NCBI RefSeq assembly: GCF_000026545.1
Contig: NC_011601.1
From: Escherichia coli O127:H6 str. E2348/69
Lineage (GTDB): Bacteria; Pseudomonadota; Gammaproteobacteria; Enterobacterales; Enterobacteriaceae
Reading direction: 5' to 3' (one strand)
DNA length: 64,000 nt
Part shown: one piece after another, positions 46,241-46,521 of the stretch
How positions within the stretch are numbered: position 1 is the first letter of the stretch
How the letters are laid out: each line of letters begins with the position of its first letter
Position numbers and translations under genes: made by a program
The notes under the pieces: model-generated
Seen by the model: only the letters and a program-made list of their open reading frames with translations
Databases searched by the model: none
What the model was told of the DNA's origin: nothing

Positions 46241-46254
46241 AGTAATAATGCCGG

Positions 46255-46500
46255 TATCAGTTTTTATCATCACTCTGTTTGCTGTTTAACCAGACTGGTG
46301 TGATTACTGATGCAGTGAAGACCTTCCCGCATCCTGACTCACACAGCGATCGACCCTTTGTGTCCTGCCCTGGACCTGTCGGTTGCCGGAAGCGCCTTCA
46401 TGCGAGGCGTCTCCTCACCGATGCGCGTGACTCAAGAAGGGCCTGACGGTTTGTCTCGTTACTGTCCTGTCCGGGTTATCTGTCTGGAGATTCAACTCTG
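46255..46500 (+). ncRNA. candidate structured guide (bridge-type) RNA in 5' leader of IS110-family element
   Basis: About 280 bp between the left element end and the transposase start with no convincing coding signal, located downstream of the promoter that would form on circularisation; limits are estimates; structure not verified. Confidence 0.45.
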
Positions 46501-46521
46501 TTTCCTCACAGGAGCTCTGTT

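What the first reader, a model, noticed from the sequence alone, without database searches (positions are those of the whole stretch)
46250..46521. Candidate bridge-type guide RNA in the 5' leader of the IS110 element; the 80-aa track ORF here is probably spurious
The roughly 280 bp between the left element end and the transposase ATG is GC-rich relative to its flanks. Its only ORF (46358-46600, 80 aa) has no ribosome-binding site and overlaps the transposase start in another frame. The region lies where IS110-group elements encode a structured RNA whose two internal loops pair with the target site and with the element's own ends. If the junction promoter is used, transcription would start near 46256-46258. 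Short matches to the target flank are visible by eye (ATCACT at about 46267-46272 versus the reverse complement of CCACAGTGAT; CAGTGA at about 46312-46317), but this is not proof of guide loops.
Basis: inference. Interest (0 to 1): 0.8.

Follow-up and report, generated by a model that had tools for sequence, protein, structure and literature searches.

The report
ISEc21 guide (bridge/seek) RNA leader
The non-coding leader of this insertion sequence (ISEc21) encodes the structured guide RNA that steers its transposase to its target; this was already shown by experiment for this very element in 2024, so the finding is correct but not new.

Summary
The element at 46241-47614 is ISEc21 (IS110 family). 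It sits in the HSD|QG codons of an IS1397 (IS3-family) transposase gene, with no target duplication. Its upstream non-coding region was shown by experiment to encode a transposase-bound, programmable "seekRNA" (Siddiquee et al. 2024, PMC11187229). The published constructs map to window 46248-46419 and 46330-46387.

Here, 63 homologous leaders (transposases 68-99% identical) support a two-loop bridge-RNA fold at 46312-46486: 47 pairs, 90.9% paired, 30 pairs with compensatory changes. A covariance model built without ISEc21 copies gives one hit in the window (149.5 bits, E 3e-37).

- **Real guides:** LTG 46342-46350, RTG 46365-46372, LDG 46435-46442 and RDG 46458-46463.
- **Donor loop:** it lies mostly outside the published RNA constructs, and its role is inferred here.
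- **Core:** unlike IS621, target and donor share no core dinucleotide.
- **80-aa ORF:** spurious.

Seen in passing: many relatives, but not ISEc21, carry a second left-target guide in the 5' hairpin, and their insertion sites suggest it is used.

The parts
46241..47614 (+). ISEc21 (IS110 family), 1374 bp, no target-site duplication
   Evidence: RefSeq annotation.
46232..46240 (+). Left target (LT) CACAGTGAT, the His-Ser-Asp codons of IS1397 orfB. It matches the LTG at 8 of 9 positions.
46241..46246 (+). Left end (right donor) AGTAAT. It pairs with the RDG by 5 Watson-Crick pairs and 1 G-T wobble.
46244..46249 (+). -10 hexamer AATAAT of the promoter that forms only at the circle junction
   Evidence: sequence reading; the paper reports that the circle junction creates a promoter.
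46254..46313 (+). 5' hairpin, AT-rich, with no guide motif in ISEc21. In many relatives the same hairpin carries a second LTG.
   Evidence: z = -3.5.
46312..46338 (+). P1, 5' strand of the long basal stem of the target-binding module
   Evidence: (21 of 25 pairs covary).
46341..46350 (+). Left target guide (LTG) ACACAGCGAU on the 5' side of internal loop 1. It has the same sense as the consensus target CACAGCGAT.
46352..46364 (+). Inner hairpin of loop 1 (GAC / GUC stem)
   Evidence: helix 2 (100% paired, nearly invariant).
46365..46372 (+). Right target guide (RTG) CUGCCCUG. Its reverse complement is CAGGGCAG, the Gln-Gly-Ser codons of the consensus target.
46373..46375 (+). Handshake-like GAC, complementary to the last 3 nt of the right end (GTC). 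This is the non-cognate DNA.
   Evidence: inference by analogy with IS621.
46378..46403 (+). P1, 3' strand
46404..46416 (+). Small linker hairpin GAGG / CCUC
   Evidence: helix 3.
46418..46431 (+). Basal stem of the donor-binding module, 5' strand
   Evidence: helix 4.
46434..46443 (+). Left donor guide (LDG) AAGAAGGGCC. Its core AGAAGGGC (46435-46442) is identical to the right end at 47604-47611.
   Evidence: (invariant columns).
46445..46455 (+). Inner hairpin of loop 2 (GACG / UGUC)
   Evidence: helix 5 (covarying closing pair).
46456..46463 (+). Right donor guide (RDG) UCGUUACU. The part GUUACU pairs with the left end AGTAAT.
   Evidence: UUACU with AGTAA 28 times, UGACU with AGTCA 13 times, none discordant.
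46464..46466 (+). Handshake-like GUC, complementary to the last 3 nt of the left target (GAC, or GAT with a wobble)
   Evidence: inference.
46469..46482 (+). Basal stem of the donor-binding module, 3' strand
46358..46600 (+). 80-aa ORF, judged spurious
46522..47598 (+). ISEc21 transposase, 358 aa (PF01548 DEDD plus PF02371); Shine-Dalgarno AGGAG at 46510-46514
47594..47599 (+). -35 hexamer TTGACT of the circle-junction promoter
47604..47614 (+). Right end (left donor) AGAAGGGCGTC
47615..47622 (+). Right target (RT) CAAGGGTG. It matches the reverse complement of the RTG at 4 of the first 5 positions and 5 of 8 overall.

Best explanation
Window 46312-46486 (+) encodes the guide RNA of ISEc21. 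It follows a 5' hairpin at 46254-46313.

**How it most likely works**
- The RNA is transcribed with the transposase mRNA from a promoter that forms only when the element's ends are joined in a circle.
- It folds into two stem / internal-loop modules.
- Loop 1 reads the target, which is the His-Ser-Asp|Gln-Gly codons of IS3-family transposase genes. Its 5' side (CACAGCGAU) pairs with the bottom strand left of the insertion point. Its 3' side (CUGCCCUG) pairs with the top strand to the right.
- Loop 2 reads the element's own joined ends in the same way: AGAAGGGC for the right end and GUUACU for the left end.
- Three nucleotides 3' of each right-hand guide (GAC and GUC) are complementary to the other DNA. 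Each 3' loop strand therefore matches a product junction, as the handshake guides of IS621 do.
- The DEDD/Tnp transposase bound to this RNA exchanges strands at GAT|CAG in the target and GTC|AGT in the donor.

**Shown by others' experiments:** the RNA binds the transposase, is required, and loop 1 can be reprogrammed.

**Shown here by comparison:** the fold, the guide positions and their concordance with flanks and ends.

**Inferred:** the role of loop 2 in ISEc21, the handshake pairing and the strand-exchange details.
For: - **Identity with ISEc21:**
- **Published experiments:** deleting IS bp 20-150 abolishes circles; RNA of bp 8-179 complements in trans; a 74-nt RNA co-purifies with the transposase; bp 90-147 suffice; the RNA was reprogrammed. 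These map onto loop 1 at window 46330-46387.
- **Conservation:** IS positions about 90-245 are conserved in all 75 relatives examined.
- **Structure:** 47 pairs, 90.9% paired against 36-43% when the 3' partners are slid, 30 pairs with changes on both sides, 0 of 500 shuffles as high.
- **Covariance model without ISEc21 copies:** one hit in 64 kb, at 46312-46486, 149.5 bits, E 3e-37.
- **Guides match their own flanks better than shuffled pairings:** 0 of 10,000 permutations for LTG, RTG and RDG (first 6 nt, wobble allowed).
- **The LTG follows the serine codon class of the site:** 22 of 22 single-guide elements.
- **RDG and left end change together:** 28 and 13 concordant combinations, none discordant.
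- **Transposase domains:** PF01548 plus PF02371 and NF033542.
Against: - The published complementing RNA (bp 8-179) ends before loop 2, and a 58-nt loop-1-only RNA sufficed in an overexpression assay. Loop 2 is therefore not strictly required there, and its presence in the mature RNA is unproven.
- The LDG is nearly invariant, so it cannot show covariation. It also stops 3 nt short of the right end, in a different register from the LTG.
- Target and donor share no core dinucleotide, a defining feature of the IS621 model.
- The permutation and Fisher tests are not corrected for phylogeny.
- Rfam has no matching family.
Confidence: 0.88

Rival explanations
1. Only the target-binding module (the 58-74-nt seekRNA, about 46330-46403) is a guide RNA. 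The second, donor-like module (46418-46482) would be a conserved 5' UTR element of the transposase mRNA, for example a transposase-binding or translation-control structure. Its matches to the element's ends would be incidental or serve another role.
For: - A 58-nt RNA (bp 90-147) suffices for transposition of a mini-IS flanked by target sequence.
- The trans-complementing RNA ends at bp 179.
- The short RNA was the abundant transposase-bound species.
- The LDG is invariant, so there is no covariation for it.
Against: - Module 2 repeats the motif layout of module 1 (GAC-yC-N10-yGAC ... GUC-N8-GNCyU-GUC).
- An 8-nt LDG core identical to the right end is invariant across 63 leaders, while the stems around it covary.
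- The RDG and the left end change together, 41 concordant to 0 discordant.
- In the deletion-complementation experiment (bp 20-150 removed), module 2 was still present in cis (my reading).
- The two-loop arrangement is the rule in IS110 elements.
Confidence: 0.1
2. The region encodes a small protein (the 80-aa ORF at 46358-46600, or the 55-aa ORF at 46279-46446), and its conservation reflects coding constraint.
For: Both ORFs exist. The equivalent frame stays open across the region in 25 of 60 relatives.
Against: - TTG start with no Shine-Dalgarno sequence.
- The frame is broken in 35 of 60 distinct relatives although the nucleotide sequence is conserved.
- Indels in the loops are not multiples of three, and substitutions are compensatory in stems.
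- No NCBIfam match.
- No CDS is annotated there in RefSeq.
Confidence: 0.01
3. The leader is only a cis-regulatory structure that controls transposase translation, with no guide function.
For: The structured GC-rich leader lies just upstream of the Shine-Dalgarno sequence. Single-sequence folding is only modestly better than shuffles (z about -2).
Against: Published trans-complementation and reprogramming. The loop sequences track the flanks of each relative.
Confidence: 0.01

Closest known systems
ISEc21 seekRNA (Siddiquee, Pong, Hall and Ataide, Nat Commun 2024, PMC11187229)
   Same: It is the same element: the transposase sequence printed in the paper's source data reads the same as the window's 358-aa ORF, and the strain record the authors used is among the best DNA matches. 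The location is the same. The bottom-strand match (CACAGCGAT) and top-strand match (CCCUG) are the LTG and RTG mapped here, in the same 5'-to-3' order. The target is the same (second D of the DDE motif of IS3-family transposases), and there is no duplication.
   Different: The paper describes target recognition only and does not use the word 'bridge'. The donor-type second loop (window 46434-46463, IS bp 194-223) lies outside its RNA constructs (bp 8-179 and 90-147). This copy sits in an off-consensus site, with 8 of 9 matches on the left and 4 of 5 on the right.
IS621 bridge RNA (Durrant et al. 2024, PMC11208160; Hiraizumi et al. 2024, PMC11208158)
   Same: - It is encoded in the left end upstream of a DEDD/Tnp recombinase.
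- It has a 5' stem-loop followed by two internal loops.
[quoted passage not shown]
- Nucleotides 3' of the right guides are complementary to the non-cognate DNA (handshake).
- The promoter forms at the circle junction.
   Different: - No shared CT (or any) core dinucleotide: the target reads GAT|CAG and the donor GTC|AGT, and the element is not flanked by a repeated dinucleotide.
- The left and right target guides abut rather than overlap.
- The LDG stops 3 nt before the right end.
- The candidate handshake is 3 nt rather than 2.
- The basal stem is very long, about 25 bp.
- The target is a protein-coding motif rather than a REP sequence.
- The proteins are too distant for a sequence match to any solved structure.
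IS1111-type seekRNA / bridge RNA (ISEc11, ISKpn4, ISPa11)
   Same: [quoted passage not shown]
   Different: In IS1111 elements the RNA is encoded downstream of the transposase gene, the order of the top- and bottom-strand matches is reversed, and the elements have subterminal inverted repeats.
CazIS110-1 two-pathway model (Sun et al., bioRxiv 10.1101/2025.10.25.684509)
   Same: A truncated loop-1 RNA exists alongside the full bridge RNA, and integration occurs mainly by top-strand insertion. This would fit the short seekRNA of ISEc21. It would also fit junctions that always carry the top-strand sequences (GAT|AGT and GTC|CAG) despite the lack of a shared core.
   Different: It is a different element. 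I read only the abstract, and nothing was tested for ISEc21.

Membership tests
IS110-family bridge RNA / seekRNA | Encoded in the long non-coding left end, on the same strand as and upstream of a recombinase with DEDD (PF01548) and Tnp (PF02371) domains | tested here: met
   The leader spans 46241-46521. Pfam PF01548 (6e-19) and PF02371 (5e-12); NF033542 'IS110 family RNA-guided transposase', 197.9 bits against a cut-off of 140.
IS110-family bridge RNA / seekRNA | Conserved secondary structure with two internal loops, supported by covariation | tested here: met
   47 pairs, 90.9% paired, 30 pairs with compensatory changes, slid controls 36-43%; a model built without ISEc21 copies scores 149.5 bits.
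IS110-family bridge RNA / seekRNA | [quoted passage not shown] | tested here: met
   Window: 8 of 9 and 4 of 5 matches. Relatives: own flanks beat shuffled pairings in all 10,000 permutations. The class test gives 22 of 22.
IS110-family bridge RNA / seekRNA | Loop 2: the same arrangement for the joined right and left ends (the donor) | tested here: met
   LDG core AGAAGGGC equals 47604-47611; RDG GUUACU pairs with AGTAAT. RDG and left end are concordant 41 to 0. Caveats: the LDG is invariant, and its register is shifted by 2 nt relative to the LTG.
IS110-family bridge RNA / seekRNA | A core dinucleotide shared by target and donor, flanking the element and included in all four pairings (the IS621 model) | tested here: not met
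   The empty site is GAT|CAA and the element reads AGTAAT...GCGTC, with no repeated bases. The same holds in relatives. The paper also reports no duplication.
IS110-family bridge RNA / seekRNA | Handshake guides: nucleotides 3' of the RTG and RDG complementary to the non-cognate DNA | tested here: inconclusive
   GAC (46373-46375) is complementary to the right-end GTC, and GUC (46464-46466) to GAC or GAT. In the alignment, G-A at the first two TBL positions is at least 90% conserved and the DBL G-U-C is invariant. With so little variation there is nothing to test the pairing against.
IS110-family bridge RNA / seekRNA | The RNA binds the recombinase and is required and sufficient in trans for recombination, and it can be reprogrammed | not testable with these tools
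   Published for ISEc21 loop 1. Not shown for loop 2.
Rfam-curated RNA family | A match to an Rfam 15 covariance model | tested here: not met
   nothing in 45000-49000 at E up to 10, apart from an unrelated weak sRNA match at 48824-48866.

The most novel reading that the evidence does not exclude
The ISEc21 clade may be a distinct variant of the bridge-RNA system.

1. It has a full donor-binding loop that the seekRNA work did not describe.
2. It recombines without any core dinucleotide shared by target and donor. Instead it relies on a 3-nt cross-pairing, so that each 3' loop strand matches a product junction. This fits top-strand-only transfer.
3. In many relatives the apical loop of the 5' hairpin carries a second left-target guide, which gives one RNA two target classes. 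The plain 5' hairpin of ISEc21 (46254-46313) would be the guide-less version of that module.
Probability: 0.5. Interest if true: 0.6.

Novelty: already known. Interest (0 to 1): 0.3.

Why it matters
For this window the result is an annotation matter.
- The 281-bp leader should be annotated as the ISEc21 guide RNA, not as an ORF.
- The element can be recognised as an RNA-guided insertion into another insertion sequence's transposase gene.

Beyond the window, the comparative data add three testable points to a system that is being developed for genome engineering.
- ISEc21 has a conserved donor-binding loop outside the published constructs.
- This clade has no shared core dinucleotide.
- Its relatives appear to carry two alternative left-target guides.

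Tried and rejected
- **Rfam 15 at a permissive threshold:** no family matches.
- **Single-sequence minimum-energy folds:** modest z-scores (-1.7 to -2.7). They pair the guide segments with each other, so I did not use them for the loop layout.
- **RNAalifold on the raw alignments:** predicted pairs inside the loops, for example AGGGC of the LDG with GUCyU. I left these out because they involve invariant columns and break the symmetry with loop 1. They cannot be excluded as an alternative fold.
rejected as guides. They lie in stems, are not conserved in relatives, and match only this off-consensus flank.
- **GGCGTC in the linker hairpin loop (46406-46411), identical to the right end:** rejected, because relatives read GGUUUCGCC there.
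- **A shared core:** tried every 1-2 nt shift of the element boundaries; none fits the empty site (my reading).
- **Sequence search of solved structures with the transposase:** no hit.
- **Two regular-expression passes returned too little and were redone.**
- **Covariation of the 5' hairpin in relatives:** inconclusive because the stems vary in length and align poorly. Single-sequence folds place the second guide at the apex of the hairpin.

Full report
**1. What is there**

The 358-aa ORF at 46522-47598 sits in a 1374-bp insert that interrupts an IS3-family transposase gene. A megablast search against complete E. coli genomes finds the stretch at 99.9% identity in E. coli O127:H6 E2348/69. 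There it is annotated 'IS110-like element ISEc21 family transposase' inside 'IS3-like element IS1397'.

Joining 46240 to 47615 gives a sequence 100% identical to intact IS1397 copies. The element is therefore exactly 46241-47614. It is inserted between GAT and CAA of the His-Ser-Asp|Gln-Gly-Trp codons, and no base is duplicated. The transposase carries PF01548 and PF02371 and matches NCBIfam NF033542, 'IS110 family RNA-guided transposase'.

**2. It is already known**

Siddiquee et al. 2024 (PMC11187229) used ISEc21 as their IS110-type model. The E2348/69 record they took it from (LT903847.1) is among the best matches to the window. Their findings:
- Circles form with abutted ends, and the junction creates a promoter.
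- Deleting IS bp 20-150 abolishes circle formation.
- RNA of bp 8-179 complements in trans.
- A 74-nt RNA co-purifies with the transposase, and bp 90-147 (58 nt) suffice.
- The target-matching segment can be reprogrammed.
- The native target is CACAGCGAT|CAGGG.

In window coordinates the constructs are 46248-46419 and 46330-46387. The paper does not use the word 'bridge' and describes no donor-binding loop. Later literature treats seekRNA and bridge RNA as the same thing.

**3. Independent check by comparison**

A scan of one genome per species returned 80 loci whose transposases are 68-99% identical to this one, across Proteobacteria. nhmmer and MAFFT show that IS positions about 90-245 are conserved at the DNA level in all 75 loci with enough upstream sequence.

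The conserved block consists of two modules with the same layout:
- Module 1: CUGAC-yC-[N10]-CGAC ... GUC-[N8]-GACCU-GUCGG
- Module 2: GUGAC-yC-[N10]-UGAC ... GUC-[N8]-GUCyU-GUCC

RNAalifold and pair counts on 63 sequences support the following elements:
- a basal stem of about 25 bp (46312-46338 with 46378-46403; 21 of 25 pairs covary);
- an internal loop with a short inner hairpin;
- a 4-bp linker hairpin;
- a second stem / internal loop / inner hairpin.

Overall 90.9% of cells are paired, against 36-43% when the 3' partners are slid by 1-3 columns. Thirty of 47 pairs change on both sides, and none of 500 shuffles reaches any observed measure.

A covariance model built from 59 relatives, with all ISEc21 copies left out, finds exactly one hit in the 64-kb window: 46312-46486 (+), full length, 149.5 bits, E 3e-37. 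Rfam 15 has no family for it.

**4. The guides**

Loop 1:
- The 5' side, ACACAGCGAU (46341-46350), equals the consensus left target.
- The 3' side, CUGCCCUG (46365-46372), is the reverse complement of CAGGGCAG, the consensus right target.

Loop 2:
- The 5' side, AAGAAGGGCC (46434-46443), contains AGAAGGGC, which is identical to the right end at 47604-47611.
- The 3' side, UCGUUACU (46456-46463), pairs through GUUACU with the left end AGTAAT.

Evidence from relatives:
- The left-target guide follows the codon usage of the site: CACAGCGAU for Ser-AGY, CACUCyGAU for Ser-TCN and AACACCGAU for Asn-Thr-Asp.
- The right-target guide follows Gln/Arg-Gly: CAGGG, CAAGG or CGNGG.
- Guides fit their own flanks better than shuffled pairings. 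Mean mismatches are 2.1 against 3.0 for the LTG and 0.83 against 1.29 for the first five RTG positions. None of 10,000 permutations reaches the observed values.
- The right-donor guide and the left end change together: UUACU with AGTAA in 28 distinct combinations, UGACU with AGTCA in 13, and none discordant.

These tests are not corrected for shared ancestry.

This particular copy lies in an imperfect site: CACAGTGAT (8 of 9) and CAAGG (4 of 5; 5 of 8 over the full guide).

**5. Differences from the IS621 model**

In IS621 a CT core is shared by target and donor, flanks the element, and is included in all four pairings. Two nucleotides 3' of the right guides then pair with the non-cognate DNA after strand exchange.

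Here target (GAT|CAG) and donor (GTC|AGT) share no dinucleotide, the left and right target guides abut, and the left-donor guide stops 3 nt before the end. The three nucleotides after each right guide fit the other DNA. The reverse complement of CUGCCCUG-GAC is GTC|CAGGGCAG, the right product junction. The reverse complement of GUUACU-GUC is GAC|AGTAAC, the left product junction.

This resembles a 3-nt handshake, but the positions hardly vary, so the pairing cannot be tested by covariation. Junctions in all loci carry the top-strand sequences. That would fit the top-strand insertion proposed in the abstract of Sun et al.. This last point is inference.

**6. The ORF**

The 80-aa ORF has a TTG start and no Shine-Dalgarno sequence. 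Its frame is interrupted in 35 of 60 distinct relatives even though the DNA is conserved. It has no NCBIfam match and is not annotated in RefSeq. The conservation pattern is that of RNA stems. The ORF is spurious.

**7.

The hexamers ATCACT (46269-46274) and CAGTGA (46313-46318) lie in the 5' hairpin stem and the P1 stem. They are at chance level and are not the guides. The inferred transcription start near 46256 agrees with the junction promoter TTGACT-N17-AATAAT. No promoter-like site exists in the integrated state.

**8. Caveat on loop 2**

The published RNAs that work in trans lack loop 2, so its function in ISEc21 is inferred from conservation and complementarity alone. In the experiment that deleted bp 20-150, loop 2 remained in cis; this is my reading.

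**9. Seen in passing**

About half of the relatives, but not ISEc21, carry a second left-target-guide-like segment. It sits in the apical loop of the 5' hairpin, in the same UGACyC-N10 context as the main guide. Their resident sites fit either the main guide or this second one.
- Genome set: 13 sites fit the main guide better and 18 fit the second guide better.
- Independent metagenome set: 21 against 19.
- Near-identical elements with identical guides occur in both site classes: L026 and L028 (99.8% identical), and L046 and L059 (98.9% identical).
- Single-guide elements are always in their own class (22 of 22). Dual-guide elements split 31 to 37, with none in neither class (Fisher p = 1.7e-6).
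- I found no description of this in the searchable literature.

**Verdict**

The finding is correct, and the feature is real and functional. It was already characterised by experiment for this very element.

Noticed in passing
Relatives only, for example L047:1201-1266, L079:866-930, L040:208-272, L026:1184-1250. The window equivalent is the plain hairpin at 46254-46313.: In about half of the ISEc21 relatives the apical loop of the 5' hairpin carries a second left-target-guide-like segment (UGACyC-nnACAGCGAU or AAACACyGAU). Resident insertion sites match either the main guide or this second one. Single-guide elements are 22 of 22 in their own class; dual-guide elements split 31 to 37, with none in neither class (p = 1.7e-6). 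Near-identical elements are found in both site classes. This suggests one RNA with two alternative left-target guides. No description was found in the searchable literature.
   Followed up: partly
window 46238-46246 and 47612-47619, and all related loci: Target (GAT|CAG) and donor (GTC|AGT) share no core dinucleotide, and there is no duplication. All junctions keep the top-strand sequences. The 3 nt after each right guide are complementary to the other DNA. This departs from the CT-core rule of IS621.
   Followed up: partly
window 46232-46240 and 47615-47622: This ISEc21 copy lies in an off-consensus site in IS1397: CACAGTGAT / CAAGGGTG against the guide-encoded CACAGCGAT / CAGGGCAG. It has the same orientation as IS1397 orfB, so read-through transcription from IS1397 could in principle supply the guide RNA while the element is integrated.
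   Followed up: no
L035, L036, L038 (Pusillimonas / Neopusillimonas) and L013: Here the left end is directly preceded by a right-end-like sequence (GTAGAAGGGGTC|AGTAAT, or CAGAAGGGCCTG|AGTAAT). In L035, L036 and L038 the right end is also directly followed by AGTAA. This looks like tandem copies or a captured circle junction.
   Followed up: no
window 46269-46277: The 5' hairpin of ISEc21 contains CACUCUG, a 7 of 9 match to the TCN-class guide CACUCUGAU of relatives. It lacks the UGACyC context, lies in a stem, and is not conserved in L007 or L012. It is probably chance (my estimate is about 9%), or possibly a vestige of a second guide.
   Followed up: partly
window 48824-48866 (-): A weak, sub-threshold Rfam match to ES036 (CssrF) sRNA: 21.5 bits against a gathering score of 37.6, E 0.75. 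It lies in the intergenic stretch that follows pepE (47990-48679) in window coordinates, and is probably chance.
   Followed up: no
window 45180-46240 and 47615-47899: The host IS1397 lies between yjbB and pepE. It is annotated in RefSeq as a frameshifted, incomplete pseudogene because ISEc21 splits its orfB at the catalytic Asp codon. The insertion therefore inactivates another mobile element.
   Followed up: no
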